From positions 41,654 through 105,653 of the forward strand of contig CAYJTP010000001.1 of the NCBI GenBank assembly GCA_964373175.1: 64,000 nt of DNA, written 5' to 3'. Below are positions 30,062 to 54,416 of this stretch, in pieces. Numbering within the stretch: the first letter of the stretch is position 1; each line of letters opens with the position of its first letter. Below the pieces are notes generated by a model. The model did no database searches, was not told where the DNA came from, and was given only the letters and a program-made list of their open reading frames with translations. The position numbers and the translations under genes are program-made. This DNA is from an uncultured Planctomycetales bacterium (GTDB lineage: Bacteria; Omnitrophota; Gorgyraeia; Aquiviventales; Aquiviventaceae).

Positions 30062-30095
30062 TGTGCTGCCTGCATGCCTGCTGCCAAATCGCCTC

Positions 30096-33445: not shown

Positions 33446-33450
33446 GAGGG

Positions 33451-35063: not shown

Positions 35064-35069
35064 GAGACG

Positions 35070-35900: not shown

Positions 35901-36004
35901 GCCGGGGCGGGCTGGCCGTGGGCCCTTGCTCAGGATGTCACCCCGAATGGGCGAAGAACAGGTGCCACCCCGCATTGGCGGGGTGGGGCTCCACATCTGG
36001 AGTG

Positions 36005-40023: not shown

Positions 40024-40033
40024 CACCGGGGAC

Positions 40034-41014
40034 TCACCTCGAAAACTGCCCGATCATCTGATGCAACCGCTCCCCGCTCAGCCAATCCGTATTGGTGTTG
40101 CTAGCGTAGCGGGTGCCGGGCTTCATCGGCCGGCCTCCCGACCAGCTCTGTCCGTCCCACCAAGGATGAGCGGGCTGGATGATGTACATATCATCAAATT
40201 CGAGGGCCTGGGCGACTTCGTCCTCGGAAATGAGCACCTCATGGAGTTTCTCTCCTGGCCGGATGCCAATGAGCTCCACTTGAGCGTCCGGTGCAATGGC
40301 TTTCGCTAGGTCCATGATCGCCATGCTGGGAATTTTTGGCACAAACACCTCCCCGCCCTGCATCTGCTGGACACAGCGAATCACAAAGTGTACCCCTTGC
40401 TCGAGCGTGATCCAAAAGCGTGTCATCCGAGAGTCGGTAATCGGCAGCCGGCCGTTCTCGCGTTTGCCCAGGAACAGGGGGATCACGCTGCCCCGGCTGC
40501 CCACGACATTGCCATAGCGCACACAACTAAAACGCGGGCCCTCCGCACCGGAGTACGCATTGCTGTGAATACAGAGCTTCTCCGCACACAGTTTTGTCGC
40601 GCCATACAGGTTGACCGGATTGACCGCTTTATCAGAGCTGACCAGCATGACCCTCTTGACCCCCTGATCGATCGCGGCCTCCACGACGTTCCGCGAGCCC
40701 ATCACATTGGTCATGATCGCTTCGATGGGATTGTACTCACAGGTTGGGATCTGCTTTAAGGCTGCGGCATGCACGACGATCTCGACACCGTTGAAGGCCC
40801 GTTCCAGTCGTTCCCGGTCCCTGACATCCCCGATGAAATACCGAAGACAGGGATGGTCAAAGCCGGATTGCCGCATCTCATGCTGTTTGAGCTCATCCCG
40901 ACTGAAGACGATGAGTTTCTTGGGCTGATAATCCCGCAGGACGACTTCTACGAATTTCCGCCCAAACGATCCAGTGCCACCTGTGACGAGAATCGTTCGA
41001 CCGTTAAGCTCCAT
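40034..41014 (-). CDS. pseB: UDP-N-acetylglucosamine 4,6-dehydratase (inverting), PseB/FlaA1/CapD-like
   Basis: NGRTILVTGGTGSFGRKFVE..., YGATKLCAEKL. Short SDR-like protein of the Polysacc_synt_2 type. ATG at 41014 gives the typical 7-residue lead-in before ILVTGG; ATG at 41035 is also possible. Confidence 0.85.
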   Translation of the reverse strand: MELNGRTILVTGGTGSFGRKFVEVVLRDYQPKKLIVFSRDELKQHEMRQSGFDHPCLRYFIGDVRDRERLERAFNGVEIVVHAAALKQIPTCEYNPIEAIMTNVMGSRNVVEAAIDQGVKRVMLVSSDKAVNPVNLYGATKLCAEKLCIHSNAYSGAEGPRFSCVRYGNVVGSRGSVIPLFLGKRENGRLPITDSRMTRFWITLEQGVHFVIRCVQQMQGGEVFVPKIPSMAIMDLAKAIAPDAQVELIGIRPGEKLHEVLISEDEVAQALEFDDMYIIQPAHPWWDGQSWSGGRPMKPGTRYASNTNTDWLSGERLHQMIGQFSR

Positions 41015-42323
41015 TGGACGCTCGGCTCCCTCCATCGTTTGGAATCAGTTGGACGGCCACCCTTCTGCCATCGGGATAGACCCACTCGTAAGGAACGAAG
41101 AAGGGTGCGGCGCTCCGGGCCTTGATATCCGCCTGTTCACCCCTCAAACCAAAATCGGCCAGGGGGCCCACGACATGAAATGCTGCGACCTCTTGCGATT
41201 CGAGCAAGGTACGCTTGCTGTTCGCCTGCCGAACACACATCTTCACCGTGTAGAATTGGGGGAGCAGGGGAACAGCGCGGAAACGACAACCGATCACGTC
41301 GTCCCCCTCCATGGCATTCAGAAGCTGTCCATCGAGAGTCATGTTCGCAGCAAAGATTTCACCGAATCCGCTGTTAATCGAGATCCAGACGTAGGGTTTC
41401 TCCACCCTCTGCCGCGCAAAGATGTGCACGGCAATATCGATGTCGTCTCCCGGATGAAAGATCGTCGTTGGCTGACCCTTCGCGTTCCTCAACACGACCC
41501 GCCTCACTTGGATGACTCCCAGGCCTTGGGTCGCGAGTGAACCTTCGGTGACAGCGGAAAGATACGCCGCCACCGTCTCCTCCGGGGAGCCGACGTCCCG
41601 CAGTTGTCCGCCATCCAGCCAGATCGTCCGATCACAGAGACTCTCGATGGCCCCCATGTTGTGGCTGACGAAGAGGACGGTCCGACCCTCGCTGGCGACG
41701 TTGCCCATCCTTCCCAGACACTTCTTCTGGAACGCCGCGTCTCCTACAGCCAGCACTTCATCAACCAAGAGGATCTCCGGCTCCAAGTGGGCGGCGACCG
41801 CGAAAGCCAGTCGCACGTACATGCCGCTCGAGTAATGCTTCACCGGGGTATCCAGGAACCTCTCCACCTCGGAAAAGGCGACAATCGCATCGAATTTGCG
41901 CGTGATCTCCGCTGTTCTCATCCCCAAGATGGCGCCGTTCAAGAACACGTTCTCCCGACCCGTCAATTCTGGGTGGAACCCAGTCCCCACCTCCAACAAC
42001 GACCCCACTCGCCCCCGGACCGCTGCGAATCCCTCCGTGGGTTCTGTGATGCGGGAGAGGAGTTTCAGCAACGTGGTCTTGCCTGCTCCGTTGCGGCCGA
42101 TCACCCCCATCACCTCGCCCGGCCTGACCTCGAAGGAGACATCCTTCAGGGCCCAGATCATCCCACTGTCCGAGGCTCGGGAACAGGAAGGCGATCTTCT
42201 CAAGCGTCGAAAGGGAGCGTTCCAGGCCTCCGTCAAGGTGTCTCGAAGCGTGCGGTAGCGCTCCGGCTGACCGATGCGGTAGCGCTTGCTGAGATTCTTG
42301 ACGTCGATGGCGACATGGGTCAT
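41004..42323 (-). CDS. wzt: ABC transporter ATP-binding protein Wzt (O-polysaccharide/teichoic-type exporter) with C-terminal carbohydrate-binding-like extension
   Basis: 439 aa. Walker A GRNGAGKTT, signature YSSGMYVRLAF, Walker B LLVDE, then a ~180-aa extra C-terminal beta-rich domain. Confidence 0.85.
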   Translation of the reverse strand: MTHVAIDVKNLSKRYRIGQPERYRTLRDTLTEAWNAPFRRLRRSPSCSRASDSGMIWALKDVSFEVRPGEVMGVIGRNGAGKTTLLKLLSRITEPTEGFAAVRGRVGSLLEVGTGFHPELTGRENVFLNGAILGMRTAEITRKFDAIVAFSEVERFLDTPVKHYSSGMYVRLAFAVAAHLEPEILLVDEVLAVGDAAFQKKCLGRMGNVASEGRTVLFVSHNMGAIESLCDRTIWLDGGQLRDVGSPEETVAAYLSAVTEGSLATQGLGVIQVRRVVLRNAKGQPTTIFHPGDDIDIAVHIFARQRVEKPYVWISINSGFGEIFAANMTLDGQLLNAMEGDDVIGCRFRAVPLLPQFYTVKMCVRQANSKRTLLESQEVAAFHVVGPLADFGLRGEQADIKARSAAPFFVPYEWVYPDGRRVAVQLIPNDGGSRASNGA

Positions 42324-42326
42324 GGC

Positions 42327-43214
42327 CTACACCACATCAGCAAACGTCTTCTCCATGCGACGAAAGTACACGACCCCACCTGCGAGGAGCACGGCCACCG
42401 CGAACGCCGATACGAGAACCAGTGGTCCAGGGCTTCCCGTCTTGCCCAGCAGGGCCCAACGAAATCCTTCCACGACACCGGCCATCGGATTCAGCCCATA
42501 CAGAATGCGCCAGGATTCCGGAACGAGACTGCTTGGATACGCGATCGGCGTGGCAAACAGCCAGACCTGGGCCAGAAACGGAATCGTATAGCGGACGTCC
42601 CGGTACTTCACATTCATCGCCGACAGCCAGAGACCCACGGAGAGAGCCGTGGCAATGGCCAATCCGATGAACAGGGGCGTCAACCAGATCGCCGCTGTAG
42701 GAACGATCCCGTAATAGAGCATCATGCCGATCAAGACCACGAAGGCAACGCCAAAATCCACCAACCCGGCCAGAACCGCAGCGAGGGGGATGATCAGGCG
42801 CGGAAAATAGATCTTCTTGATCAGGTGTTGGTTGGCGATCAGGCTGTTTCCCGACTCCGTGAGCGCATGGGCAAAGAGCTGCCACGGGACCAGGGCCGCG
42901 TACGCGAAAATCGGGTACGGGATTCCATCAGATGGCACCTTGGCCAATCGACCAAAAAAGATGCTGAAGACGACCATCGTGAGAAACGGCTGCAGGATGG
43001 CCCACGCCGCTCCGAGCGCCGTCTGTTTATAGCGCACCTTGATATCCCGCCAGATCAGGAAATACAACAACTCGCGGTATTCCCAGAGCTCCTTCAGCTG
43101 GAGGGAGACGAAGCCCTTGGTCGGCTGAATCACCACGACGGGGACCGGCACCGATGGCACGGAAAGGAGATCCGCCTCCGGCAACGGGTGTGCAATGTCC
43201 GTGATGTGGGACAT
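42327..43214 (-). CDS. wzm: ABC-2 type transporter permease Wzm
   Basis: 295 aa, 6 TM helices, ABC2_membrane pattern (LWEYRELLYFLIWRDIKVRYKQTALG). Confidence 0.85.
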   Translation of the reverse strand: MSHITDIAHPLPEADLLSVPSVPVPVVVIQPTKGFVSLQLKELWEYRELLYFLIWRDIKVRYKQTALGAAWAILQPFLTMVVFSIFFGRLAKVPSDGIPYPIFAYAALVPWQLFAHALTESGNSLIANQHLIKKIYFPRLIIPLAAVLAGLVDFGVAFVVLIGMMLYYGIVPTAAIWLTPLFIGLAIATALSVGLWLSAMNVKYRDVRYTIPFLAQVWLFATPIAYPSSLVPESWRILYGLNPMAGVVEGFRWALLGKTGSPGPLVLVSAFAVAVLLAGGVVYFRRMEKTFADVV

Positions 43215-44881: not shown

Positions 44882-45840
44882 TTCACGGCACCTCTGCTGA
44901 ACGCTTTTGCCCACGCGACACACGCCTTCGCGCGTTGGGGCCCGAGAACCCAATCGAGGCTCCTTCGTGCCCTGTGCTTCAACGTCGAACTGTAGAAATA
45001 GGTGATCTGATACCTCCAAAAAACCAGCCGCAGAGCTCTGGCTTTGGCCACAGCATGGTTCGAGCCCTGCAGGTTCAGTGCAGGTCTTTCGACCGGAGGG
45101 GCGGCCTTCGCCAACACCCGTAAGCCTCTTCCTTCATCCCCCACAACACAAGAAGAAAATCCAACCTGTCCCAGCAGGGACAAAAACGATGGGCGTGTGA
45201 AGAGCCGTAAATGCTGGGCCCCGAGGAACTCGCCCAGGTGGTGGCGAGGCTTCCAGGCATTGGGGACTTCAAGATACAACCGTCCGTCCGGTCTCAAGAG
45301 AGTCTTCACCCGCGTCAGAAAGGCGCAGGGGTCAGAGACATGCTCCAACACCCGCAAGGCGGCCACCAGATCAAATCTCCCTGGAGGCAGGGACGCCTCC
45401 TCGAAAGTCCCTCGCCGGATATCCAACCCGTACGCCCGTTGCCCAAACCGGGCAAAGGCGGAGGGCTCGATGCCGCACGTCTCCCATCCCAGCCGATGAA
45501 ATCTCAACAGGAAGGAACCCTCGGAGCAACCAATGTCCAGCACCCTCCCCCTCTGCCTGAGATGGGGAGCCGCCCAGTGAAAATCTTCCTCGGCCTGACG
45601 CCCCTTCCACCACAGGTGCTCCTCACTTGGGGTGTCTTCCGCCCGCAACGTTTCGTAGAGTCGTGTTAACTCCCCAGGCTCCAGTTGCGGCCGAGAGTAC
45701 ACCAATCCGCAGGTCTGACACATCACCTTCACTACGCGGGCCCGTTCCAGCCCCAATCGCTGGAGGTACGCATCCCGGCGCAGCACGTAGACCGGCACCG
45801 CCGCCCAGGAACCACACACAAGACACGGGACGTCCTTCAT
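44875..45840 (-). CDS. SAM-dependent methyltransferase with N-terminal Cys4 zinc-binding domain (Methyltransf_13-like)
   Basis: CLVCGS...CQTCGLVYSRP ribbon; VLDIGCSEGSFLL motif I. Start at the ATG in an ATGA overlap. Confidence 0.75.
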   Translation of the reverse strand: MKDVPCLVCGSWAAVPVYVLRRDAYLQRLGLERARVVKVMCQTCGLVYSRPQLEPGELTRLYETLRAEDTPSEEHLWWKGRQAEEDFHWAAPHLRQRGRVLDIGCSEGSFLLRFHRLGWETCGIEPSAFARFGQRAYGLDIRRGTFEEASLPPGRFDLVAALRVLEHVSDPCAFLTRVKTLLRPDGRLYLEVPNAWKPRHHLGEFLGAQHLRLFTRPSFLSLLGQVGFSSCVVGDEGRGLRVLAKAAPPVERPALNLQGSNHAVAKARALRLVFWRYQITYFYSSTLKHRARRSLDWVLGPQRAKACVAWAKAFSRGAVKR

Positions 45841-46541
45841 CGGCTGTATTCTCCTGAGCCACACAATTGTAGGAGAGCCTGCGCGAGCCTCAATCCATCC
45901 TCGTCATGGAGATCGACCTGGCTACTCACATCCCGGACTGGAACTAACCCGATTCGATCTCCAAGCCGTCTACCAGATCGAACGATGTCGGCTCGAATGG
46001 CGGTCGCCATCCCCGCCAACTCCTTATAGGTAGGTTGCACCTGATGACGCGTATGATCTCCCTCCTCAGGGTGGAGCTGCTCGAGGCTGTTTTCCGAAAA
46101 CCGCCAGAAGCGATGGCGCTCCTCCCGAGCGGCAAAGACCGTATCCAATCCTTCTGTCTGAAGCACCTCGACGACATCGTCGATCAGCCCTGGTGGCCGG
46201 ATCGGATGCGTCACCTCGAGCAAGACCACAATATCCACCGGGTAAGAGTCCTCTTGCTCGAGCCACTGGAGGCAATGTTGGAGGACCTGAATCATCGGCA
46301 CCCCTGCAGCCGCGAGGTGGGGTGGTCGGAAAAAGGGGACCTCCGTCCCGTAACCCCTGGCCACCTCCGCGACCACGGCGCTATCCGTAGAGACGAGAAT
46401 CCGGTCCAGACATGTCGCCTGACGTGCGGCCTCAATCGTGTAGGTGAGCACCGGTTTTCCACACAGCAGGGACTCTGGTGTCATCTGGGCCTCCGGGTCA
46501 CTGCCCCGGAGCGGGATGATCGCTACCGTGTTCAGATGCAT
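45837..46541 (-). CDS. NeuA-family cytidylyltransferase (CMP-ulosonic acid synthetase-like), divergent
   Basis: VAIIPLRGS...GKPVLTYTIEAARQ...ILVSTDS...EVPFFRP follows the CMP-NeuAc synthetase pattern but lacks the GSKG loop. Confidence 0.65.
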   Translation of the reverse strand: MHLNTVAIIPLRGSDPEAQMTPESLLCGKPVLTYTIEAARQATCLDRILVSTDSAVVAEVARGYGTEVPFFRPPHLAAAGVPMIQVLQHCLQWLEQEDSYPVDIVVLLEVTHPIRPPGLIDDVVEVLQTEGLDTVFAAREERHRFWRFSENSLEQLHPEEGDHTRHQVQPTYKELAGMATAIRADIVRSGRRLGDRIGLVPVRDVSSQVDLHDEDGLRLAQALLQLCGSGEYSR

Positions 46542-47920
46542 GATCGCCCTTCCAGCCATCGTGCGAGAAATGCCAGCGTGCGATCAACCGCCCCGCTCTC
46601 CTGTTGGATCAGGCGAGCCCCGGCAGTCCGAATCGCCTGAAGTGGAGCGTGGCCGGTCAGAACGTCAACCGCTCGGCTCGCCAGAGTCATGGGTGAATCC
46701 ACCTCAAGCCCTGGCCAAGCCTCCAACAACTGCGTAGTGGCGGTTCGCCAAAGATTCATATGGGGGCCAAAGAGGGGTGGCACCCCGTGCGCTAATGGCT
46801 CTAGGGGGTTATGGCCCCCTCTCCGTTCATTGATTGGGACAAGACTGGACCCAATAACGGCCACATCGGCCGCACCATAGATCGTCCGGAGCTCCCCAAA
46901 CGTATCCACTACTAACGCGTCGTACCGCCCCAACTCTGGCGTAGGATGTTGGGCCACCGCGGTTCGCGTCATGACCCTGAAGCCATGTTCCCTGACCCGT
47001 CCCACCATTGCGGGAACGTCGTGAAGCCAGCGTGGCGCGATGATCAACCGGCTGCTCGGAAGGCTCGCCCGGATCAGGCTGAAGGCCTCAAGCATGGTTC
47101 CAATTTCTCCTGGAGGCAGGCTCCCAGCAATCATGACGCGATCCTCTTCTCGAAGGCCGAGGCTACCCCGAAGCGCTTGACGCTCCGCTGGAGAGAGTTG
47201 GAGATGGCTCAGATCCCCTTCCAATTTCCCTGTGACGGCCAACCGATCGGTCGGCACCCCCAGCGAACGAAAGGCGTCGTAATCGGCTTCGCTTTGGACC
47301 GCGATGGCATCGAGCGTGCGGTGGACGCCCAAGGCGAGCGAACGTCGCAAACACGGGTTCGCCACGTGCACATTCCGAGTAAGCACGGCGTTCACCAGCA
47401 CCGTTGTCACCCCTCGCCGCTTCGCATGCTTGAGGAGCGTTGGGAAATAGGCATTCGCCACAAACACCAACGCCTTAGGATTCAACCGGCGGACCACGCG
47501 CGAGACTGGAAGTGAGGTATCCCAAGGTGGGAATGCCACCCGCCCTGGACCATACCACTGGCGGAGCAGCCCGTGTGCATCGTACGAATCGGTGGAGAAA
47601 TAACACGGGTCTCCTCCCGCTTCCAATTGGCGAATCAGGGACTGCGCCATGATCACCTCACCGCCAGAATTCATATGGATCCACAGCGGTTTGGTCCCAT
47701 CATACTGTTCGAGCTCTGCCGGCAACCACCCCCACTGATCCCAAAACCGACGGACCATCAGATCGTGCACAGCGCGACGAGGGTGCAGCAGCACGCGCTT
47801 CGTCAAGGTAATTGGGAAATACGCATACGCCAATGCTGCATAGGGCATCTGATAGCGAGCCCACGTGGTCCAGCGCTCCTGGGCGCTGCGGAACTCACCG
47901 GTCGAGGGATTCCCCATCAC
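46532..47920 (-). CDS. 3-deoxy-D-manno-octulosonic-acid transferase-like glycosyltransferase (GT30, KdtA/WaaA family)
   Basis: 462 aa. N-terminal LWIHMNSGGEV (WaaA HxxSxGE-like) and a C-terminal GT-B domain (VVDTFGELRTIYGAADVAVIGSSL). Confidence 0.7.
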   Translation of the reverse strand: MMGNPSTGEFRSAQERWTTWARYQMPYAALAYAYFPITLTKRVLLHPRRAVHDLMVRRFWDQWGWLPAELEQYDGTKPLWIHMNSGGEVIMAQSLIRQLEAGGDPCYFSTDSYDAHGLLRQWYGPGRVAFPPWDTSLPVSRVVRRLNPKALVFVANAYFPTLLKHAKRRGVTTVLVNAVLTRNVHVANPCLRRSLALGVHRTLDAIAVQSEADYDAFRSLGVPTDRLAVTGKLEGDLSHLQLSPAERQALRGSLGLREEDRVMIAGSLPPGEIGTMLEAFSLIRASLPSSRLIIAPRWLHDVPAMVGRVREHGFRVMTRTAVAQHPTPELGRYDALVVDTFGELRTIYGAADVAVIGSSLVPINERRGGHNPLEPLAHGVPPLFGPHMNLWRTATTQLLEAWPGLEVDSPMTLASRAVDVLTGHAPLQAIRTAGARLIQQESGAVDRTLAFLARWLEGRSCI

Positions 47921-49698
47921 GTCCGCAAGATGTATTCGACCAACCGGAACGGAAAGTCATCCTTCACGTGCAGGAGTTCAAGCCTAGCCCGTTCAAACAT
48001 CGATAACCAGCGCGCCGTCGTGGTTGGCAAGCCCTGCCACGTCAGGGGATGGATGATGTACTGGTAAAACAGCGGATGGATGCGGTCCGGAAACGGCAGT
48101 GCCTTAACCTCTTCATCCGACAGGCGGTTGAATTCCCCGACAAAGATATACCGCCCGGGGAACTGCCGCTTGAGCCCCGCAAAGAGCTGGACGACCGGCT
48201 CTTCGCCATCTCGCAGGAACTCATGGAAGGACATGATGCCGTTGAAGGCACCAACCTCCTTGACCTCGCTGGCAAACGTCTCTGGTCGGGTGAAATCGCC
48301 CTTGACCAGCCGAATGCGGTCAGTCAATCCGGCCTCTGCTACACGGCGCCGGGCCTCCTCAAGCGCCTCCTCTGAGATGTCGATCCCGATACCCCGAAGA
48401 GCCGGATCCAACCGACAGAAGGCAATGAGCGTTTCGCCAGATCCGCAGCCGAGATCAGCGAACGTCCGCACACCCCGCTTGGTCAGCTCTGACACGACCC
48501 AGGGATAGTTTGATTTGCCCGTGTAGTAACTGCCGCGGGCCAGCCAATCCCCTCGGCGGACGAAACCCACGCCGTAGCGCTTTTCCTCGCGTAGTGCGGG
48601 CACGAGTTCGTAGAGCAGACACGCATAGGCGCCGACCGCTCCAAAGGACATGGCCAGCACGGGATCGGTGAAGAGCCACTCGCCGCGGTCGGTGAGGGCA
48701 AATCGGTCCCCTTCTTTCTGCAGCACGCGGTCGGCAAAGGCGAGGAAGTGCAGCACGCCATCCAAGAGGTACGTGTTGAGTCCACATTCCGCGGCCAATT
48801 CTTTGACGGTCTTGGGACCGCTGCGGCGCAGCACCTCGAAGACACCGGTCTCGTGGAGAGCAAACAGGATAAAGGCCCTTGCGTACCCATTCCGAATGTT
48901 CTGAGACCACGTTTTCACATCGTCCCCAAGCCAACCCTCTTTCAGATCAGTGCCGCCGGCGCCATTGCCAGACAGTAGCGGGGCAGCGGGTGCCTCCGGA
49001 TAACGCAACAGCTGTTCCGCCAGCCAGAAATCCAAGGGGGTATGGATATCGATTGACGTGCGAAAATCATTCGTTTCCACAATGTCCACGCGCGAGCCCA
49101 CACGCTGGCCTGCTCGGATGAGCGACGCTCTGGTGGCGCAGGCCACGCCGGTATCCTCCCGGTAGAGGTACGCCTTGCGGCTCTGCCGGGAGGTATAGGT
49201 CGCTAATTCTGGCGCAAGCCGCTGGAAACCTTCCGGCGTCCGATGCCAGTAGTTTTTGTGCGTCTTGTACCCTGAGAAGACGGTTTCCAACTCGGGATGA
49301 GCCGCAAGCCGATGGACGCACTCCCGGATTATGTCCGGCGTCCGGAACAGGTCCGTCGTCTGCAGGTACACGACGATGTCAAACGTGATTCCCCGCAGTT
49401 GTTCGTACGTGACGAGGGCGTGCTGGAGCATGGGCTCGGCAGGTACAGAGTCCTCAGCGAGCTCGCGCGGACGAAGAAACGGGACCTCAGCTCCAGCGTC
49501 GCGGGCGATGCGGGCGACACGCTCATCCTCGGTGCTCACGAGCACGACATCGCACACCCCGGAGACCTTCGCGTGCTCGATGGTATGGACTAGGAGGGGT
49601 TTGCCGCCGATCGGCAGCAGGTTCTTACCCGGCAAGCCCTTTGAACCGGCCCGTGCCCCGATGATCGCGATTGTCCTTGGCAGCGCGGCTGGCATCAC
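47917..49698 (-). CDS. fusion: NeuA-family cytidylyltransferase + class I SAM O-methyltransferase (with dimerisation/wHTH-like linker)
   Basis: 593 aa. IAIIGARAGSKGLPGKNLLPIGGKPLLVHTIEHA...VPFLRP (CMP-sugar synthetase). C-terminal FADLGCGSGETL motif I, preceded by a winged-helix-like segment as in plant-type O-MTs. Confidence 0.75.
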   Translation of the reverse strand: MMPAALPRTIAIIGARAGSKGLPGKNLLPIGGKPLLVHTIEHAKVSGVCDVVLVSTEDERVARIARDAGAEVPFLRPRELAEDSVPAEPMLQHALVTYEQLRGITFDIVVYLQTTDLFRTPDIIRECVHRLAAHPELETVFSGYKTHKNYWHRTPEGFQRLAPELATYTSRQSRKAYLYREDTGVACATRASLIRAGQRVGSRVDIVETNDFRTSIDIHTPLDFWLAEQLLRYPEAPAAPLLSGNGAGGTDLKEGWLGDDVKTWSQNIRNGYARAFILFALHETGVFEVLRRSGPKTVKELAAECGLNTYLLDGVLHFLAFADRVLQKEGDRFALTDRGEWLFTDPVLAMSFGAVGAYACLLYELVPALREEKRYGVGFVRRGDWLARGSYYTGKSNYPWVVSELTKRGVRTFADLGCGSGETLIAFCRLDPALRGIGIDISEEALEEARRRVAEAGLTDRIRLVKGDFTRPETFASEVKEVGAFNGIMSFHEFLRDGEEPVVQLFAGLKRQFPGRYIFVGEFNRLSDEEVKALPFPDRIHPLFYQYIIHPLTWQGLPTTTARWLSMFERARLELLHVKDDFPFRLVEYILRT

Positions 49699-51356
49699 CC
49701 CTCCAGGGAACTCACGGACGCAGCGGTGGGGACGTGGGGTCGCTCATGGATAAGCTCGATGACGCGCGCCACACGCTGTGCCCGCCGCTCGTCACGGCCT
49801 TGGTGGATCCCGTGATAGTGGTACACGCTGGCGAGCGGCGTGTACACGATCTGGTGGCCCTCCGCCAGCACCTTCTTTGCCCAATCTCGATCTTCAACAC
49901 CGTTGAGCTGCTCGTCGAACGGGATTCGTTGCCACACGGCCTTGCAGATCATCGAGTTCGCGTTATGGAAGAAGTAGTCCTGCCCATGTTGCATGCGCCG
50001 CTCTGCTCCAAATGTCGTCCATAAGTCCCGTTTATCAAAATGACTCGTATCGGGCATCGGCTCTTGTCGGCCATAGGCAGCCGCCACAAATGGGAGTCGG
50101 CCATAGCCCGTCGCCCGTTCGCATGCGAAGCCCTCGAGCCACCGGTCGTGGACCGGGATGCAGTGGGCCGACAGGTTGACCACCCATGGGCAGTGCGCGG
50201 CGTCAATGCCCCGATTGAGGGCGCGGCCGAAACTGAACTCATCATCACGCATGGTGAGGACGCGGCACTCGAACTGGCGCGCGACCTCTACCGACTCATC
50301 CGACGAGTCGTTGTCCACGACGATGATCTCCTTCGGCGGCCGCTGCTGGTTGAGGAGGGCCCACAGCGAGCGACGCAGCCATCCGGCTTCGTTCTTGGTC
50401 CGAATGACCACGGAAATCTCCAGTGGCAACCCCGAACTCCTCACAGTCCACGGAACCACCATCCCGAAGGTCATGGGCTCGCCGGGCTCGCGGTCATACA
50501 GCAACTGCGCGCCCTCCAGGCGAGCCGTCATGGCAGGCGTGAAGCCTTTCAGCTTAGGCACCATCTCAACGTCGCTCGAGGCCAAACGACTGCCGGCTCG
50601 TAGGGACCGTCGGGCAACTAGGCTTGGCGCAAACGCCAGCGGCGATTCGCCCTGGGGAACCGCAGCCAGCTGTGCTGCTCCTTGCTGAAACGTGGAAACC
50701 AGCGACTCGTGTTCCCGCACGTAGGTGACCAGCCGCGCGAACTCATGTGGATAGAGGCTTCCCTGGTGCTCAGGTCCTCCAAGGCTTCGGTTCAAGGTCA
50801 ATCCCTTCAAAATCGTCTCGGCTCCGGCCAATGCCCCGTTCAGGGCTCGCCACGGCTCTGGAAACTCATCAGAATAGCCCACGCCCCATCCGAGCTCACG
50901 AACCTGTTGTCTGAGTCTGAACCACTCCGACAGCCGCTCGCCGCGGTTCATGACGATGACGACCAGATGGACTAACCGCTCGTCAACCGGCCCCAGGTCG
51001 AGGTCAACTGTAGCATTGTTGTCGATGAGCAGCAGCATCGGCTTCTGGCAGGTTCGAAGCGCCAGGAGGGACTGGAAGCCCTGAAGGTCTCTGGGACGGA
51101 GGAGATAGCCTGCCGCATCACGGAGTAGCGGCTGATGCAGATCGTCGGAGCTCGAGATTTCGAGGTAGGGATCAAGGTCACAGGCCCTCGCGCTCTGGCA
51201 TAGCTGCTGTGCCACATGGTTCGAAACCCATGGTCGCCGTGGGATGACCACACCAGAAACCTTGCACTCCACAGCCCACTCGATGAGTCGTAGTCCTCGT
51301 TCAGGCGCCTGCTGCTCAATCATCAGTTCAGCGAGGAGTTGCCGCGGTGTGCTCAT
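49695..51356 (-). CDS. fusion: degenerate NeuB-like (TIM-barrel) domain + GT2 glycosyltransferase
   Basis: C-terminal ISVVIRTKNEAGWLRRSLWALLNQQ...IIVVDNDSSDES is GT2. The N-terminal ~300 aa has NeuB-like spacing (GWGVGYSDEF versus NeuB IGYSDHT) but lacks the His. Start at the ATG in an ATGA overlap (MSTPRQL). Confidence 0.6.
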   Translation of the reverse strand: MSTPRQLLAELMIEQQAPERGLRLIEWAVECKVSGVVIPRRPWVSNHVAQQLCQSARACDLDPYLEISSSDDLHQPLLRDAAGYLLRPRDLQGFQSLLALRTCQKPMLLLIDNNATVDLDLGPVDERLVHLVVIVMNRGERLSEWFRLRQQVRELGWGVGYSDEFPEPWRALNGALAGAETILKGLTLNRSLGGPEHQGSLYPHEFARLVTYVREHESLVSTFQQGAAQLAAVPQGESPLAFAPSLVARRSLRAGSRLASSDVEMVPKLKGFTPAMTARLEGAQLLYDREPGEPMTFGMVVPWTVRSSGLPLEISVVIRTKNEAGWLRRSLWALLNQQRPPKEIIVVDNDSSDESVEVARQFECRVLTMRDDEFSFGRALNRGIDAAHCPWVVNLSAHCIPVHDRWLEGFACERATGYGRLPFVAAAYGRQEPMPDTSHFDKRDLWTTFGAERRMQHGQDYFFHNANSMICKAVWQRIPFDEQLNGVEDRDWAKKVLAEGHQIVYTPLASVYHYHGIHQGRDERRAQRVARVIELIHERPHVPTAASVSSLEG

Positions 51357-52483
51357 CGATCCCACTCGGTCGCCATCGCACAGAGCACCCGTTCGTGCGT
51401 GGTGGAATGATCCAGGCCTAACTGACGAAGCCATGGCCGGCAGACGAAACGCGTGAAGGCCTCAGCGGCCTGCGCGAGGTTCATCATCCGCCCGTTCAAC
51501 GTCGGATGCCCGCTCCATCGGGCATGGCGGAGGAACACCGTCTCCAAGGGACTGTAGATGATGTCGTAGCAGACAGTGGTACGAGGCAACCGACTGCAGC
51601 TCACCAGCGAGACCTCCTGATTACGCTGGATGTCTCCGACGGACTTCCAATACCAGTCCTCACGGAACACATCCTCTGCTCCCGGGGTGCCAGCAAGGAC
51701 TTCAGGATGGGCCGGCCCAAGCGCGGAATATGGCTCCAAGCAAGTCCACCGACCGTCCCGCAACTTTCGGATACCCCCCTGTCCCTTTACCGTCGCGTTG
51801 ATGACCAGATCCACTTGAGGCAGGTGGTGGACGATCATTCCTTCATCGATTGCGGTCAACCGTCCGGACCGCGTCCCTGCTAGACGCTCCACTAGATGCT
51901 GCGCCTGGGGTTGCGTTCGATTCGCAATGATCAGCTCGCCCTGCAGCATCTGGTCCCAGAGATAGAAGGCCAGCGCTTGAGCCGCACCCCCTGCTCCCAG
52001 TAACAGCACACGCGCACGGGAGAGATCTGAGAAGAGGGGCTGGCTGCCGCCAGCAGCCGGCGAAGTCAAGGCGCGCAGCCCGCCCAGCCCATCGGTGTTG
52101 TAGCCTACAAGCCGCCCATCTGCTCCCCGGGCGATGACGTTGACGGCGCCGATACGTTCAGCCAGTAGGTCGAGCTCGTCCAGCAAAGGGATCACGGCCA
52201 CCTTGTAGGGCACTGTCACGCTGCCGCCCAAGAAGGCGTCACTGCACCGCAGTAGCTGGATGACCTGAGACAACTGATCCTGCGAGACGTCGAAGGGAAC
52301 GTAGACCGCTTCAAGGCCAAGCGCGGCAAATGCCGCGTTCCATAGGCGTGGGCTCTTCGCATACGTCGAGGGCGTATCGCCCAGGATCGCGGCGATGCGC
52401 TTGCCCTGCAGTGCCGCCACGTCAAGCGGGTTGGTCACCAGCCGCTGGAGTTCCTCAAGCCACGTGTCCTGGGTGGTCGTCAT
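51353..52483 (-). CDS. shikimate 5-dehydrogenase (AroE) family oxidoreductase homolog
   Basis: 376 aa. N-terminal substrate-binding pattern (GDTPSTYAKSPRLWNAAF, NVTVPYK) and the glycine-rich NAD(P) site VLLLGAGGAAQA. Confidence 0.7.
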   Translation of the reverse strand: MTTTQDTWLEELQRLVTNPLDVAALQGKRIAAILGDTPSTYAKSPRLWNAAFAALGLEAVYVPFDVSQDQLSQVIQLLRCSDAFLGGSVTVPYKVAVIPLLDELDLLAERIGAVNVIARGADGRLVGYNTDGLGGLRALTSPAAGGSQPLFSDLSRARVLLLGAGGAAQALAFYLWDQMLQGELIIANRTQPQAQHLVERLAGTRSGRLTAIDEGMIVHHLPQVDLVINATVKGQGGIRKLRDGRWTCLEPYSALGPAHPEVLAGTPGAEDVFREDWYWKSVGDIQRNQEVSLVSCSRLPRTTVCYDIIYSPLETVFLRHARWSGHPTLNGRMMNLAQAAEAFTRFVCRPWLRQLGLDHSTTHERVLCAMATEWDR

Positions 52484-53325
52484 GCAACCCTCACCAGCCC
52501 AGCCGTCAGCCTCCGTCCAACAGCGGGAGCCATCGTTTCGAGCTGCTGCATGAGCTGCCCAAACGCCCCGTAGTCTAACGCCTGCAGGGGATCCACGGCT
52601 GCCTGCTCCGGTGTTGGATGGACGTCAATCAAGATCCCATCGGCACCAATCGCCAGGGCCGCGCGCGCCACGGGGGCGACATACGGCCGTCGAAACGTTG
52701 CGTGACTCGGATCAACCAAGATGGGGAGGTGCGTGTACTCTTGCGCCGCGGGAACCACCTGGAGGTCCACGATGAAGCGCGACGTAGGCGCATGGGTATG
52801 AGGCGCGACGATGCCGCGCTCGCACAAAACAACCTGTGAATTGCCGCCAGCGAGGAGATACTCAGCGGCCCCGAGCCAGTCGCGCAAGCTGGCTCCAAAG
52901 TGGCGCTTGAGGAGAACGGGTTTGCCTATTTTCGAAACGGCTTCAAGGAGCGGAACGTTCTGCATGTTGCGCGAGCCGATCTGCAGCATGTCGGCATAGG
53001 TGGCCACCACTTCCACCACCCGCACATCCATCACTTCCGTGACGACCGGTAACCCTGCGGCGTCCCCGGCTTCGCGCAGGTACCGCAGGCCTTCTTCACG
53101 CAATTCAAACATTGTGGTGTTCCGATACGGAAATGTGAGCGGCTTGAACGCCCCGCCACGCAACATCTGCGCCCCAAGCTCCTTGACGCGGTGGGCAATC
53201 TCACGGATCTGCGCGCGACTCTCGACCACACAAGGGCCAGCAATCACCGTGAAGGTCTCAGCGCCTATCGCGTGACCGCCAACCGTCACGATCGTCTTGT
53301 GGGTTGGGGTTCGCCGGGCTGCCAA
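52480..53325 (-). CDS. DAHP-synthase-I-beta / Kdo8P-synthase family aldolase, divergent active-site motif; start uncertain
   Basis: KTIVTVGGHAIGAETFTVIAGPCVVES...LRGGAFKPLTFPY (canonical KPRTSPY)...PILVDPSH. The track ORF (to 53517) would overlap the upstream gene by 154 nt; TTG at 53325 is provisionally chosen. Confidence 0.6.
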   Translation of the reverse strand: MAARRTPTHKTIVTVGGHAIGAETFTVIAGPCVVESRAQIREIAHRVKELGAQMLRGGAFKPLTFPYRNTTMFELREEGLRYLREAGDAAGLPVVTEVMDVRVVEVVATYADMLQIGSRNMQNVPLLEAVSKIGKPVLLKRHFGASLRDWLGAAEYLLAGGNSQVVLCERGIVAPHTHAPTSRFIVDLQVVPAAQEYTHLPILVDPSHATFRRPYVAPVARAALAIGADGILIDVHPTPEQAAVDPLQALDYGAFGQLMQQLETMAPAVGRRLTAGLVRVA

Positions 53326-53363
53326 GGGAAGGTTGTGCTCTAGGTCACTGGGTGAGATGTCTT

Positions 53364-54416
53364 TCAGTCCGCTCCTCCTCCGCTCCTGGCTAGCGCTGGC
53401 GAGAGGTTGACCACGCGTCGTTGCGCCGACGACTGGTAAATGGCTTCCATGACCTCGGCCAGCCGCACACCGCTGTCCACGACATTGGCTTCCGGGGTCG
53501 TTCGCGTCTCGACGCATCGCAGGAACGACTCCAGTTCGAGCTTCACCTGATCCACCGGGCCTAGGCTCGGCAGGTTCAGCCGAATACCCCCCTCATTGAC
53601 CAACTGCCATACCCCCTCGCGCAACGCATGGTGCACGCGAAACAACTCTACGGTCCCAGTCTCGACATCCGCTTCGATGGTCGCCTTTGACCCACAGACC
53701 ACGAGCTCTTTGGTGGTCTTGGCGTGTGGAACGACACGGTCGTTCCACCGACCAGGCTGAATATAGCCGGACTCCACGTGAGCAAGCACCCCATTGGGGT
53801 AGGTAAGCAGCACGACTGACAGATCTTCCAACCCACGATTCAAGTGATCGCGGGTCACGGCGAAGACCTCTTCAGGCTCGGCCGCCAGCAACCAGTTGAT
53901 CAAGTCAATGAAGTGGATGGCATCCGTGTGCGTGACGCCCACGTCGGTCCGCGCACGCTTAAATCCCATGAACCGTCCTGAGAAATAGCGGAGGCCGCCC
54001 AGCGTCCCCAGCGCGAGCTGCTGCTTGATCCACTGCGCGATCGGATGGACACGATAGTAGTAGCCGACCTGGACGATCCGGCCGGTCTGCGCAACCAGCT
54101 CGCTGAGTTCCCGCGCCTCGGCCGCCGTCATCGTCATTGGCTTCTCAATGAACGTATCCTTGCCAGCGGTCAGTGCCTCACGGCAGAGCATTCCGTGCGT
54201 ATCTGTCGCCGTCACGATGTCCACCACGTCCACTGTTGGCAACCAGGATCGGAAGTCAACACCAACCCGCTCACGCGGAACCCCACATGCCACAGCCCAC
54301 GTGTGCCGCTTGGGCAACACCTCTGCGACCCACAACGACTCTCGGTAGCCAAGCTCAAGCCACGCCTTCAGGTGGACCTGGCCGAAGCCGCCTAACCCAA
54401 TCTGGAGCACGTTCAT
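53364..54416 (-). CDS. Gfo/Idh/MocA-family oxidoreductase
   Basis: MNVLQIGLGGFGQVHL, EKPMT motif, 350 aa. Confidence 0.8.
   Translation of the reverse strand: MNVLQIGLGGFGQVHLKAWLELGYRESLWVAEVLPKRHTWAVACGVPRERVGVDFRSWLPTVDVVDIVTATDTHGMLCREALTAGKDTFIEKPMTMTAAEARELSELVAQTGRIVQVGYYYRVHPIAQWIKQQLALGTLGGLRYFSGRFMGFKRARTDVGVTHTDAIHFIDLINWLLAAEPEEVFAVTRDHLNRGLEDLSVVLLTYPNGVLAHVESGYIQPGRWNDRVVPHAKTTKELVVCGSKATIEADVETGTVELFRVHHALREGVWQLVNEGGIRLNLPSLGPVDQVKLELESFLRCVETRTTPEANVVDSGVRLAEVMEAIYQSSAQRRVVNLSPALARSGGGAD

What the first reader, a model, noticed from the sequence alone, without database searches (positions are those of the whole stretch)
52480..53517. DAHP/Kdo8P-synthase-family enzyme with altered PEP-phosphate-binding motif and unresolved start
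The conserved KPRTS(P/Y) phosphate-binding motif reads KPLTFPY (Arg replaced by Leu, Ser by Phe). This implies changed substrate specificity, for example a non-phosphorylated acceptor or a different donor. The only ATG/GTG/TTG-initiated ORF overlaps the upstream gene by 154 nt, so the true start may be an internal TTG/GTG or a non-canonical codon near the upstream stop (CTGA context after GGAGGAGGAG).
Basis: seen in the sequence. Interest (0 to 1): 0.5.

Follow-up and report, generated by a model that had tools for sequence, protein, structure and literature searches.

The report
Repurposed DAHP-synthase-like sugar-acid synthase
This gene looks like the first enzyme of aromatic amino-acid synthesis, but it belongs to a conserved branch that has lost the pocket for that enzyme's sugar-phosphate substrate and always sits in surface-sugar gene clusters, so it most likely makes an undescribed Kdo-like sugar acid; here it also appears to start at a rare CTG codon.

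Summary
ORF 52480..53517(-) is a type Ibeta DAHP-synthase homologue, and KPLTFPY aligns column for column with the canonical KPRTSPY. It is not an error or a pseudogene. All 128 clade sequences collected carry KP[L/C/A]T[F/Y]P, and 13 clade representatives are monophyletic in a neighbour-joining tree. The metal and PEP-binding residues are kept. The loops on the acceptor side are rebuilt (R77L, S79F, G156H, VAPHTH insertion, G225F, E248D). In 13 distinct loci from several phyla the gene lies in glycan clusters and never beside aro genes. It usually sits between a Gfo/Idh/MocA oxidoreductase and a divergent shikimate-dehydrogenase-like gene, near CMP-ulosonate cytidylyltransferases and GT30 or GT52 transferases. 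Best reading: a PEP-dependent synthase of a 3-deoxy-2-ulosonic acid, made from an acceptor other than E4P that is probably unphosphorylated. The acid is then tailored, CMP-activated and transferred. The start is resolved by homology: 116 of 120 homologues begin (M/V)KD, which here is CTG at 53367, 4 nt after GGAGGAGGAG and overlapping the upstream TGA. A 96%-identical relative has the same CTG. The acceptor is unidentified and nothing is tested biochemically.

The parts
52480..53367 (-). Coding sequence of the DAHP-synthase-like enzyme as re-annotated here: 295 aa, CTG start, TGA stop at 52480..52482.
   Evidence: Pfam DAHP_synth_1 at 1.4e-59. PDB type Ibeta DAHPS at 5.7e-80. AF2 model with pLDDT 89.1; Foldseek to 1vs1 gives E 2e-36 and TM 0.83/0.91. 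Homologues are 287-296 aa and 116/120 start (M/V)KD at this position.
53365..53367 (-). Probable CTG initiation codon. It overlaps the TGA stop (53364..53366) of the upstream oxidoreductase gene, giving CTGA.
   Evidence: ATG occupies the same position in L002, L004, L005, L007 and L088. The identical CTG is present in the independent assembly L001.
53372..53381 (-). Shine-Dalgarno-like GGAGGAGGAG, 4 nt upstream of the CTG, lying inside the end of the upstream gene.
   Evidence: It is the only occurrence in 64 kb; 0.30 are expected by chance, and 25 of 100 shuffles give at least one. It is absent from the ATG-starting relatives.
53368..53517 (-). A 50-codon 5' extension of the mechanical ORF (ATG at 53517). 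It is probably not translated as part of this protein and lies inside the oxidoreductase gene in another frame.
   Evidence: No clade homologue has a counterpart. The upstream gene aligns to its homologues to its end.
53098..53160 (-). The beta2 loop RGGAFKPLTFPY-RNTTMFELR. The PEP residues R70 and K75 are kept. The E4P-phosphate residues are replaced (R77L, S79F). A 3-4 residue insertion follows, with clade-specific R82, F87 and E88.
   Evidence: Column comparison of 128 clade and 127 canonical sequences. Residue roles from PMC6362186. Coordinates.
52894..52908 (-). The beta5 loop KRHFG. The PEP-binding K154 is kept. The canonical Gly is replaced by the clade-conserved H156 (122/128).
52777..52818 (-). 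The beta6 loop RGIVAPHTHAPTSR. The PEP-binding R184 is kept. The canonical RGIRTFE is replaced by V-A-P-H-T-H: an insertion plus H190 and H192, invariant or nearly so in the clade.
   Evidence: The AF2 confidence dips here (block pLDDT 70), as it does in the beta2 loop.
52687..52713 (-). The beta7 loop DPSHATFRR. The metal ligand H222 is kept. The canonical Gly is replaced by F225.
52582..52626 (-). The beta8 region DVHP...AAVDPLQ. The metal ligand Glu is replaced by Asp (D248). The metal- and acceptor-binding D259 is kept. S258V and G260P are further changes.
53364..54416 (-). Gfo/Idh/MocA NAD(P) oxidoreductase, translationally coupled upstream partner.
   Evidence: Pfam. A Gfo/Idh/MocA gene (Pfam or tblastn match) adjoins the synthase in 11 of 13 distinct clade loci.
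51353..52483 (-). Shikimate-dehydrogenase-like oxidoreductase (376 aa), with an ATGA overlap on the synthase stop.
   Evidence: Pfam Shikimate_dh_N and Shikimate_DH. It falls below every NCBIfam AroE cut-off, with the best at 167.6 against 200.2. The K/D dyad motifs SVTVPYK and NTDG are kept. There is a ~55-aa insertion, and canonical HSLSP reads YAKSP.
49695..51356 (-). Fusion of a degenerate NeuB-like domain (with a SAF-like C-terminal part) to a GT2-family domain. The start is probably the ATG at 51356 (ATGA overlap).
   Evidence: Pfam and NCBIfam. The module's NeuB-like proteins lack the SDH and EKH motifs of the window's true NeuB. Start.
47917..49698 (-). CMP-ulosonate cytidylyltransferase domain fused to a methyltransferase related to the C3-methyltransferases of alpha-keto acids.
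   Evidence: Pfam CTP_transf_3. PseF-like at 2.7e-28 and ketoArg_3Met at 1.4e-27. PDB NeuA at 4.9e-19, MppJ at 1e-13 and 2-ketoarginine methyltransferase at 1.4e-8.
46532..47920 (-). Divergent GT30 (Kdo-transferase-like) glycosyltransferase.
   Evidence: Pfam Glycos_transf_N at 1.6e-26. NCBIfam WaaA models score 183.7 bits, below the 438 cut-off. Also present in L001 and L002.
45837..46559 (-). Second CTP_transf_3 cytidylyltransferase paralogue. It is fused to the GT2 domain in L010, L011 and L088.
41004..43214 (-). Wzm/Wzt ABC exporter. Wzt carries the C-terminal carbohydrate-binding domain.
   Evidence: Pfam ABC2_membrane, ABC_tran and Wzt_C.

Best explanation
The gene encodes a neofunctionalised member of the type Ibeta DAHP-synthase lineage.

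The enzyme. It keeps the (beta/alpha)8 barrel, the divalent-metal site and the whole PEP-binding site. It should therefore still catalyse the metal-dependent aldol-like addition of PEP to an aldehyde with release of phosphate. The residues that clamp the phosphate of erythrose-4-phosphate, and four neighbouring active-site loops, have been replaced by a different, strictly conserved set. The acceptor is therefore not E4P and is probably a non-phosphorylated aldose.

The pathway. The product would be a 3-deoxy-2-ulosonic acid resembling Kdo or DAH. It is probably tailored by the two co-translated oxidoreductases (Gfo/Idh/MocA and shikimate-dehydrogenase-like). In this window it may also be methylated. 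It is then activated with CMP by the adjacent CTP_transf_3 enzymes and transferred to a surface glycan by a GT30-like transferase. Here that glycan is an ABC-transporter-exported polysaccharide, possibly with the acid as its terminal cap.

Translation. Translation of the gene in this genome starts at CTG 53367. It is helped by a strong Shine-Dalgarno sequence and by coupling to termination of the upstream gene (CTGA).

Shown: the family, the fold, the conserved substitutions, the monophyly, the gene neighbourhood and the position of the start. Inferred: catalytic competence, loss of E4P use, the nature of the acceptor and product, the order of steps and the use of CTG.
For: Family and fold

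Motif and clade
- The motif aligns to KPRTSPY.
- All 120 best homologues carry KPLTFP.
- Only about 8 of the best 150 clusters at 50% identity carry the variant; the rest are canonical.
- Thirteen clade representatives form one group in the NJ tree, with a stem of 0.038 against a median internal branch of 0.010.

Active site
- Retained: C46, R70, K75, R133, K154, R184, H222 and D259.
- Changed, and fixed or nearly fixed in the clade: R77L, S79F, the loop insertions, G156H, H190, H192, G225F and E248D.
- Residue roles come from PMC6362186.

Context
- All 13 distinct clade loci are glycan clusters and none has aro genes.
- A Gfo/Idh/MocA gene and a shikimate-DH-like gene each accompany the synthase in 11 of 13 loci. 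The GT2-like gene and CTP_transf_3 genes are found in most.
- The transferases beside the module belong to families that use CMP-ulosonic-acid donors: GT30 in the window, L001 and L002, and GT52 in SAR86.
- No HAD or KdsC-type phosphatase appears in any Pfam-annotated locus.
- The module's NeuB-like proteins lack the SDH and EKH motifs of true NeuB, so this enzyme is the module's only evident synthase.
- The window has a separate, complete NeuB-based pathway.
- The methyltransferase fused to a cytidylyltransferase resembles alpha-keto-acid C3-methyltransferases, which fits an alpha-keto-acid substrate.

Start codon
- dN/dS against the CTG-bearing relative is 0.28, within the range of the neighbouring genes (0.10-0.41), so the gene is still under constraint.
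Against: - No member of the clade has been assayed, and nothing shows activity or identifies the acceptor.
- The clade also gains invariant or nearly invariant basic residues (R82, R162, H156, H190, H192). These could hold a phosphate or carboxylate at a new position, so 'non-phosphorylated' is not proven.
- One locus (L089) has the synthase, the shikimate-DH-like gene and the Gfo gene without any cytidylyltransferase within 10 kb.
- The roles of the GT2-like domain, the second cytidylyltransferase and the dead NeuB-like protein are unexplained.
- CTG is a very weak initiator in the bacteria where it has been measured (my own knowledge), so expression could be low.
- The dN/dS estimate rests on only 20 substitutions.
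- NCBIfam scores exceed the curated cut-offs for DAHP synthase. By sequence score alone it would be called a normal enzyme.
Confidence: 0.6

Rival explanations
1. It is still a bona fide DAHP synthase. In this reading it is a divergent housekeeping or pathway-specific isozyme, and the neighbouring shikimate-dehydrogenase-like gene marks a partial shikimate or quinate branch that supplies a cyclitol or aromatic decoration for the glycan. E4P would be bound by the new basic residues.
For: It scores above the curated NCBIfam cut-offs for 3-deoxy-7-phosphoheptulonate synthase (351.7 against 335, and 311.9 against 267.75). The PEP and metal sites are intact. A shikimate-DH-family gene is its most constant neighbour. 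The new conserved residues R82, R162 and three histidines could bind an anion.
Against: The Arg of KPRT is invariant in 127/127 canonical sequences and contacts E4P in the crystal complex, yet it is Leu here. The invariant Ser is Phe. No aroB, aroD/Q, aroK, aroA or aroC was seen in any of the 13 loci; without a dehydroquinate synthase, DAHP cannot reach the substrates of a shikimate dehydrogenase. The shikimate-DH-like protein fails every AroE cut-off. The context is always glycan assembly with CMP-transferases.
Confidence: 0.1
2. The enzyme makes a short 2-keto-3-deoxy acid, for example from glyceraldehyde. An oxidoreductase reduces this acid at C2, it is methylated, and it is then attached as an N-acyl side chain to a nonulosonic acid rather than being CMP-activated itself. 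The model is the 2-methoxy-4,5,6-trihydroxy-hexanoyl group on the flagellin nonulosonic acid of Treponema denticola.
For: That side chain is a 3-deoxy-hexonic acid, whose skeleton is what PEP plus a triose would give (structure quoted in PMC13439194). The window and L004 hold complete NeuB-type pathways near the module, and L004 lies beside flagellin genes. Two oxidoreductases and several methyltransferases are present.
Against: The marine loci L010 and L011 have the module but no NeuB or PseB/PseC genes within 10 kb. No acyl-activating enzyme (ligase, ATP-grasp or acyl carrier) is conserved with the module. Two dedicated CTP_transf_3 genes and GT30 or GT52 transferases travel with it. I could not check whether T. 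denticola has a clade member, because the original paper is not held.
Confidence: 0.15
3. The gene is decaying in this genome. In this reading the ATG-to-CTG change is a start-codon loss, and the protein is no longer made, or is made only from the internal TTG at 53325 without its conserved N-terminus.
For: CTG is a poor initiator (my own knowledge). A gene caller placed the start of the 96% relative at the TTG (P0001).
Against: The reading frame is intact in two independent assemblies that share the CTG. dN/dS is 0.28, like the neighbours. A strong, lineage-specific Shine-Dalgarno sequence sits at the right distance from the CTG, and nothing comparable precedes the TTG. The NTGA overlap favours reinitiation. 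All signature residues are intact.
Confidence: 0.1

Closest known systems
[quoted passage not shown]
   Same: Same Pfam family and fold, with 45-55% identity and TM 0.83-0.93. The same PEP-binding residues are present, as are three of the four metal ligands. There is no regulatory domain, as in the archaeal enzymes.
   Different: - The Arg and Ser of KPR(T/S)S are replaced by Leu and Phe.
- There are insertions in the beta2 and beta6 loops.
- G156H, G225F and E248D are further changes.
- A conserved MKDIS N-terminal extension carries a short helix.
- It is never found next to aro genes and always lies in glycan clusters.
KDO8P synthase (KdsA) and the Kdo pathway (KdsD, KdsA, KdsC, KdsB, WaaA)
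   Same: Same superfamily and reaction type. The pathway logic is the same: a synthase, then a CTP_transf_3 cytidylyltransferase, then a GT30 transferase.
   Different: It is only distantly related to KdsA (100 bits against a cut-off of 314). It lacks the KANRS sugar-phosphate motif. No isomerase or phosphatase genes accompany it. Extra oxidoreductases and a second cytidylyltransferase do. The GT30 protein scores below the WaaA cut-offs.
NeuB-type synthases (NeuB, PseI, LegI), which condense PEP with non-phosphorylated sugars
   Same: The proposed chemistry and role match: PEP plus a free aldose gives an ulosonic acid, which is CMP-activated for surface glycans or flagellin. The context matches too.
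   Different: It is a different family. The NeuB Pfam hit is marginal at 29.5 bits, TIGR03569 gives 19 bits against 399, and there is no SAF domain. It works like NeuB but is not one. The module's own NeuB-like proteins have lost the conserved SDH and EKH motifs.
Terminal beta-Kdo capping of ABC-transporter-dependent O-antigens (WbbB with a Wzt carbohydrate-binding domain)
   Same: The window combines Wzm/Wzt (with Wzt_C), a Kdo-transferase-like enzyme and a CMP-ulosonate supply. WbbB adds a terminal Kdo to an O-antigen (PMC9587256 abstract).
   Different: The transferase here is GT30-like, not WbbB-like. The sugar acid would not be Kdo. A capping role is inference only.
EpaA/EpaB tailoring of pseudaminic acid in Acinetobacter baumannii
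   Same: A second CTP_transf_3 domain travels with oxidoreductases that remodel an already formed ulosonic acid (PMC12053666). This may explain the paired cytidylyltransferases and dehydrogenases here.
   Different: The oxidoreductase families differ: aldo-keto reductase and SDR there, Gfo/Idh/MocA and shikimate-DH-like here.

Membership tests
Type Ibeta DAHP synthase (EC 2.5.1.54) | DAHP_synth_1 (beta/alpha)8 barrel | tested here: met
   Pfam at 1.4e-59. AF2 model with pLDDT 89; Foldseek to 1vs1 at E 2e-36.
Type Ibeta DAHP synthase (EC 2.5.1.54) | Score above the curated family cut-offs | tested here: met
   NF006421 scores 351.7 against 335. TIGR01361 scores 311.9 against 267.75. This explains the automatic name given by public sources.
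Type Ibeta DAHP synthase (EC 2.5.1.54) | PEP-binding residues (Arg and Lys of RGGAFK, G-A/S-R, LLK, ERG) | tested here: met
   R70, K75, S132/R133, K154 and R184 are present and invariant in the clade. Roles from PMC6362186.
Type Ibeta DAHP synthase (EC 2.5.1.54) | Metal ligands Cys, His, Glu and Asp | tested here: inconclusive
   C46, H222 and D259 are kept. The Glu is Asp (D248) in 121/128 clade members, against Glu in 123/127 canonical ones. Asp can still ligate a metal.
Type Ibeta DAHP synthase (EC 2.5.1.54) | E4P phosphate-binding Arg and Thr/Ser of KPR(T/S)S | tested here: not met
   The motif is KPLTFPY. Arg is found in 127/127 canonical sequences, and Leu, Cys or Ala in 128/128 clade sequences. 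Ser is 127/127 against Phe 127/128. The alignment is unambiguous.
Type Ibeta DAHP synthase (EC 2.5.1.54) | Association with aromatic amino-acid biosynthesis (aro genes, or a chorismate mutase or ACT-type regulatory domain) | tested here: not met
   There is no regulatory domain. No aro genes lie within +/-10 kb in any of the 13 loci, all of which are glycan clusters.
Type Ibeta DAHP synthase (EC 2.5.1.54) | Catalysis of E4P + PEP to DAHP | not testable with these tools
   This needs an enzyme assay.
KDO8P synthase (KdsA) | KdsA family score and the KANRS motif | tested here: not met
   TIGR01362 scores 100.1 bits against a cut-off of 314. PDB KDO8PS hits are near 1e-20 against 1e-80 for DAHPS. 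The motif is KPLTF.
NeuB / sialic-acid-synthase family | NeuB barrel plus a C-terminal SAF domain | tested here: not met
   PF03102 gives only 29.5 bits. TIGR03569 gives 19 bits against 399.65. There is no SAF domain.
CMP-ulosonic-acid glycan pathway (functional class) | A synthase encoded together with a CTP_transf_3 cytidylyltransferase | tested here: met
   There are two CTP_transf_3 genes within 7 kb in the window. The family is present in 11 of 13 loci.
CMP-ulosonic-acid glycan pathway (functional class) | A transferase of a family that uses CMP-ulosonate donors | tested here: met
   GT30-like in the window, L001 and L002. GT52 in L011. Not seen in every locus.
CMP-ulosonic-acid glycan pathway (functional class) | Existence of the CMP-sugar and of the sugar in a glycan | not testable with these tools
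   This needs metabolite and glycan analysis.

The most novel reading that the evidence does not exclude
This clade is a fourth functional class of alpha-carboxyketose synthase, beside DAHPS, KDO8PS and NeuB. It evolved once from type Ibeta DAHP synthase. It condenses PEP with a non-phosphorylated aldose to start a previously undescribed CMP-activated sugar-acid pathway. That acid may be redox-tailored and, in some lineages, C3-methylated. The pathway has spread by gene transfer among Nitrospirota, Acidobacteriota, Omnitrophota, Actinomycetota, Alphaproteobacteria and SAR86. Public databases uniformly label the enzyme as a shikimate-pathway enzyme.
Probability: 0.45. Interest if true: 0.75.

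Novelty: new variant of a known kind. Interest (0 to 1): 0.6.

Why it matters
If correct, a widespread environmental enzyme now auto-annotated as the entry point of aromatic biosynthesis is really the entry point of an unknown bacterial surface-sugar pathway. That would have four consequences:
- It would correct metabolic reconstructions, which otherwise show a false 'DAHP synthase' in MAGs.
- It would add a new branch to the well-studied DAHPS/KDO8PS/NeuB enzyme superfamily. That branch has a clear, testable specificity switch at the KPR(T/S)S motif, already regarded as the selector between E4P and A5P.
- It would point to a new sugar acid on cell surfaces or flagella of abundant uncultured bacteria.
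- It would offer a biocatalyst for 3-deoxy-ulosonic acids made from unphosphorylated sugars.

The CTG start is a natural case of a non-canonical initiation codon maintained inside a coupled NTGA overlap together with an unusually strong ribosome-binding site.

Tried and rejected
1. Substitution patterns in the 150-nt overlap. I compared the window with L001 to decide which frame is coding. There is only one difference, so the test is uninformative.

2. Literature. Seven full-text searches used combinations of DAHP synthase, DAH7PS, KDO8PS, ulosonic, nonulosonic, heptulosonic acid, flagellin glycosylation and shikimate dehydrogenase. None found a paper describing this clade or a DAHPS-like gene in a glycan cluster. 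The library lacks most subscription papers, so absence is weak evidence. The original T. denticola glycan paper is not held.

I could not test whether the same genomes also carry a canonical DAHP synthase.

4. A midpoint-rooted tree. It gave a meaningless common ancestor because one independent variant (P0126, KPCTYPY) sits elsewhere. After re-rooting and setting it aside, the clade is monophyletic.

5. Two PEP-condensing enzymes in series. I considered this because a NeuB-like gene follows the shikimate-DH-like gene in many loci. I rejected it because those NeuB-like proteins lack the conserved SDH and EKH motifs and the N-terminal motifs of true NeuB.

6. A different donor than PEP. I rejected this because all PEP contacts are kept.

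7. A frameshift fusion with the upstream gene. I rejected this because the relatives have separate genes with ATGA overlaps.

8. A PDB sequence search for the NeuB-like/GT2 fusion found nothing.

9. The AF2 model could not be inspected at atomic level with these tools, so the size of the acceptor pocket was not measured.

Full report
**1. The observation**

The mechanical ORF 52480..53517 on the minus strand (345 aa, ATG) is real. It matches Pfam DAHP_synth_1 at 1.4e-59. Its best solved relatives are type Ibeta DAHP synthases: A. pernix 1vs1 at 5.7e-80, then P. furiosus 1zco and T. maritima 1rzm. KDO8P synthases follow some sixty orders of magnitude behind.

In those alignments RGGAFKPLTFPY lies directly opposite RGGAFKPRTSPY. 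The motif is therefore not misaligned, and no canonical KPRTS is present elsewhere. It is encoded at 53125..53145.

The upstream gene ends at 53364, so the ATG-initiated ORF overlaps it by 154 nt. The CTGA context preceded by GGAGGAGGAG is present. That decamer occurs once in the 64 kb window.

**2. It is a conserved clade, not an accident**

A search of about 5.8 billion protein clusters returned thousands of relatives. All 120 best hits (66-96% identity, 281-307 aa) carry KPLTFP.

An exhaustive HMMER search of 1.84 billion representatives at 50% identity gave 7632 hits. Among the best 150, about eight clusters carry KP[L/C/A]T[F/Y]P, and the great majority of the rest carry the canonical Arg-and-Ser motif.

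In a neighbour-joining tree, thirteen clade representatives form one group. Its stem is about four times the median internal branch. One KPCTYPY sequence (P0126) arose separately.

The window gene and its 96% relative differ by 11 synonymous and 9 non-synonymous changes. That gives dN/dS of 0.28, within the range of the neighbouring genes (0.10-0.41).

**3. What changed and what did not**

I compared 128 clade members with 127 canonical type Ibeta sequences column by column. Numbering follows the 295-aa protein.

Retained:
- C46, H222 and D259, which are metal ligands.
- R70, K75, S/A132-R133, K154 and R184.

According to PMC6362186, which summarises the crystal structures, this second set is exactly the PEP-contacting set. 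That paper also states that the Arg and Thr of KPRT are the E4P-binding residues in the T. maritima complex.

Changed, and fixed or nearly fixed in the clade:
- R77L and S79F.
- A 3-4 residue insertion after PY, with new R82, F87 and E88.
- G156H.
- RGIRTFE replaced by RGI-V-A-P-H-T-H, with H190 and H192.
- G225F.
- The metal ligand Glu replaced by Asp (D248).
- S258V and G260P.

All of these lie in the loops at the C-terminal ends of strands beta2, beta5, beta6, beta7 and beta8, which is the catalytic face of the barrel.

The AF2 model is confident overall (pLDDT 89.1, pTM 0.89). It superposes on DAHP synthases at TM 0.83-0.93. Confidence dips only in the two loops that carry insertions.

The KPR(T/S)S versus KANRS motif is known from mutagenesis work on DAH7PS and KDO8PS to govern selection of the sugar phosphate. 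This point rests on my own knowledge of that literature and was not retrieved here.

**4. Genomic context**

The window is one long minus-strand glycan supercluster. Around the gene, in order, are:
- two UDP-sugar dehydrogenases, epimerases, a DegT aminotransferase, a Gfo oxidoreductase and a hexapeptide acyltransferase;
- a second Gfo/Idh/MocA oxidoreductase (53364..54416);
- the synthase itself;
- a shikimate-dehydrogenase-like gene (51353..52483);
- a NeuB-like/GT2 fusion;
- a CTP_transf_3/methyltransferase fusion;
- a GT30 Kdo-transferase-like gene;
- a second CTP_transf_3 gene;
- methyltransferases and a Wzm/Wzt exporter.

Four consecutive genes are joined by NTGA start/stop overlaps.

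I examined 13 distinct loci carrying clade members. They come from Nitrospirota, Acidobacteriota, Ilumatobacteraceae, Nisaea, an alphaproteobacterial single-cell genome, SAR86 and unassigned metagenome contigs.
- A Gfo/Idh/MocA gene and a shikimate-DH-like gene each accompany the synthase in 11 of 13.
- A GT2-like gene and CTP_transf_3 genes are present in most, and are fused to each other in three.
- No locus holds aro genes or a HAD/KdsC-type phosphatase.
- In SAR86 the adjacent transferase is GT52, the sialyltransferase family.
- In Nitrospirota the module abuts flagellin genes.

GT30 and GT52 both use CMP-linked 2-ulosonic acids as donors.

The NeuB-like proteins of the module have lost the SDH and EKH motifs and the N-terminal motifs that the window's genuine NeuB retains (29003..30061, 278.9 bits). 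From memory, the histidines of those two motifs are the metal-binding residues in N. meningitidis NeuB. The DAHPS-like enzyme is therefore the module's only evident synthase.

The methyltransferase fused to one cytidylyltransferase is most similar to MppJ and to 2-ketoarginine methyltransferase. Both methylate C3 of alpha-keto acids, which fits an alpha-keto-acid intermediate.

**5. Most likely mechanism**

Shown: the fold, the retained PEP and metal site, the rebuilt acceptor site and the constant glycan/CMP context.

Inferred:
- The enzyme adds PEP to an aldehyde that is not E4P and is probably unphosphorylated, giving a 3-deoxy-2-ulosonic acid.
- The Gfo and shikimate-DH-like enzymes oxidise, reduce or epimerise it, or prepare its precursor.
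- It is then CMP-activated and transferred.

Three points support the tailoring role:
- Quinate and shikimate are carbocyclic analogues of the pyranose form of such acids.
- A shikimate-DH-family enzyme acting on a ketose is known (5-ketofructose reductase 7cok).
- The EpaA/EpaB system is a precedent for a second cytidylyltransferase travelling with redox tailoring of an ulosonic acid.

In this window the Wzt carbohydrate-binding domain and the GT30-like enzyme suggest that the acid may cap an ABC-exported polysaccharide, as beta-Kdo does in WbbB systems. This last point is speculative.

The chain length and identity of the acceptor remain unknown. New conserved basic residues (R82, R162 and three histidines) leave room for an anionic group bound at a different position.

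**6. The start codon**

Of the 120 homologues, 116 begin (M/V)KD[ILV][ST]. The window reads L-K-D-I-S, with the Leu encoded by CTG at 53367..53365.

In L002, L004, L005, L007 and L088 an ATG occupies the same position. In L002 and L005 it forms an ATGA overlap with the Gfo gene.

The independent assembly L001 (96% protein identity) has the identical GGAGGAGGAGCGGACTGAAAGAC. The CTG is therefore inherited and not a sequencing error.

No ATG, GTG or TTG lies between 53517 and 53325. The 50-residue extension from ATG 53517 has no counterpart in any homologue. Starts at TTG 53325 or GTG 53289 would remove 14 or 26 conserved residues.

The strong Shine-Dalgarno sequence, 4 nt from the CTG, is specific to the CTG-bearing lineage. 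This may be a compensatory change. I put about 0.75 on initiation at CTG (or reinitiation there), and the rest on the TTG or on loss of expression.

**7. Comparison with known families, and novelty**

By fold and score the protein is a type Ibeta DAHP synthase, and public sources name it so. However, it fails the defining E4P-binding feature and the pathway association, so it should not be filed as one.

It is not a KdsA or a NeuB by sequence. It probably works like NeuB, using a free aldose, within Kdo-like pathway logic.

I found no description of this clade in the held literature.

I rate it a new variant of a known kind. It is of solid interest to enzymologists and glycobiologists, but it rests on inference until assayed.

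Noticed in passing
window 47917..49698 (-): A CTP_transf_3 cytidylyltransferase is fused to a methyltransferase. The methyltransferase's best solved relatives are MppJ (phenylpyruvate C3-methyltransferase) and 2-ketoarginine C3-methyltransferase. It may C-methylate C3 of a 3-deoxy-2-ulosonic acid. Such a product would resemble the unexplained '+CH2, C10' CMP-ulosonic acids reported in Magnetospirillum (bioRxiv 10.64898/2026.04.20.719630).
   Followed up: partly
window 49695..51356 (-); also L004 12158-13192, L005 12021-12938, L090 12207-12953, L091 11987-13009: The NeuB-like proteins that travel with the module have lost the SDH and EKH motifs and the N-terminal motifs of true NeuB, but keep the SAF-like C-terminal part. 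In the window this protein is fused to a GT2 domain. They are probably pseudo-enzymes of unknown role.
   Followed up: partly
window 22531..41035 (-): A separate, apparently complete nonulosonic-acid gene set is present: true NeuB (29003..30061), a GNAT, a CTP_transf_3/class-III aminotransferase fusion (30096..32093), another CTP_transf_3 (24469..25254), PseB/PseC-like genes, a HisH/HisF-like pair and a formyltransferase-like gene. Together with the module, that makes five CTP_transf_3 domains in 64 kb.
   Followed up: partly
window 51353..52483 (-): The shikimate-dehydrogenase-like protein keeps the catalytic Lys and Asp motifs. It has a ~55-residue insertion, altered substrate-binding motifs (HSLSP reads YAKSP) and falls below all AroE cut-offs. 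L004 carries two such paralogues flanking the synthase.
   Followed up: partly
window 49695..53367 (-): There are four successive four-base start/stop overlaps: CTGA at 53364-53367, ATGA at 52480-52483, ATGA at 51353-51356, and one at 49695-49698. All long ORFs of the whole 64 kb window lie on the minus strand.
   Followed up: no
P0126; L037, L045; P0270, P0261 (proteins and loci): Other departures from KPRTS occur among otherwise canonical type Ibeta enzymes: an independent KPCTYPY lineage (P0126), KPSTSPY (for example Dehalococcoidia L037 and Armatimonadota L045), KPTTSPY and KPQTLVY.
   Followed up: no
L014, L016, L032, L036, L080: Two canonical DAHP-synthase motifs lie 1.0-1.3 kb apart on the same strand, which indicates tandem paralogues.
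   Followed up: no
L088 3501..7086: In a distant clade member (KPATFPY), the Gfo and shikimate-DH-like genes are replaced by a radical-SAM/SPASM gene and a B12-binding radical-SAM gene. The CTP_transf_3 gene and the GT2-CTP_transf_3 fusion remain.
   Followed up: no
L011 11675..13429; L089 17729..18493: A 2OG-Fe(II) oxygenase gene lies next to the module in SAR86 and in another locus, and SAR86 also has a GT52-family gene. The oxygenase is reminiscent of Kdo hydroxylation to Ko, which I recall from my own knowledge.
   Followed up: no
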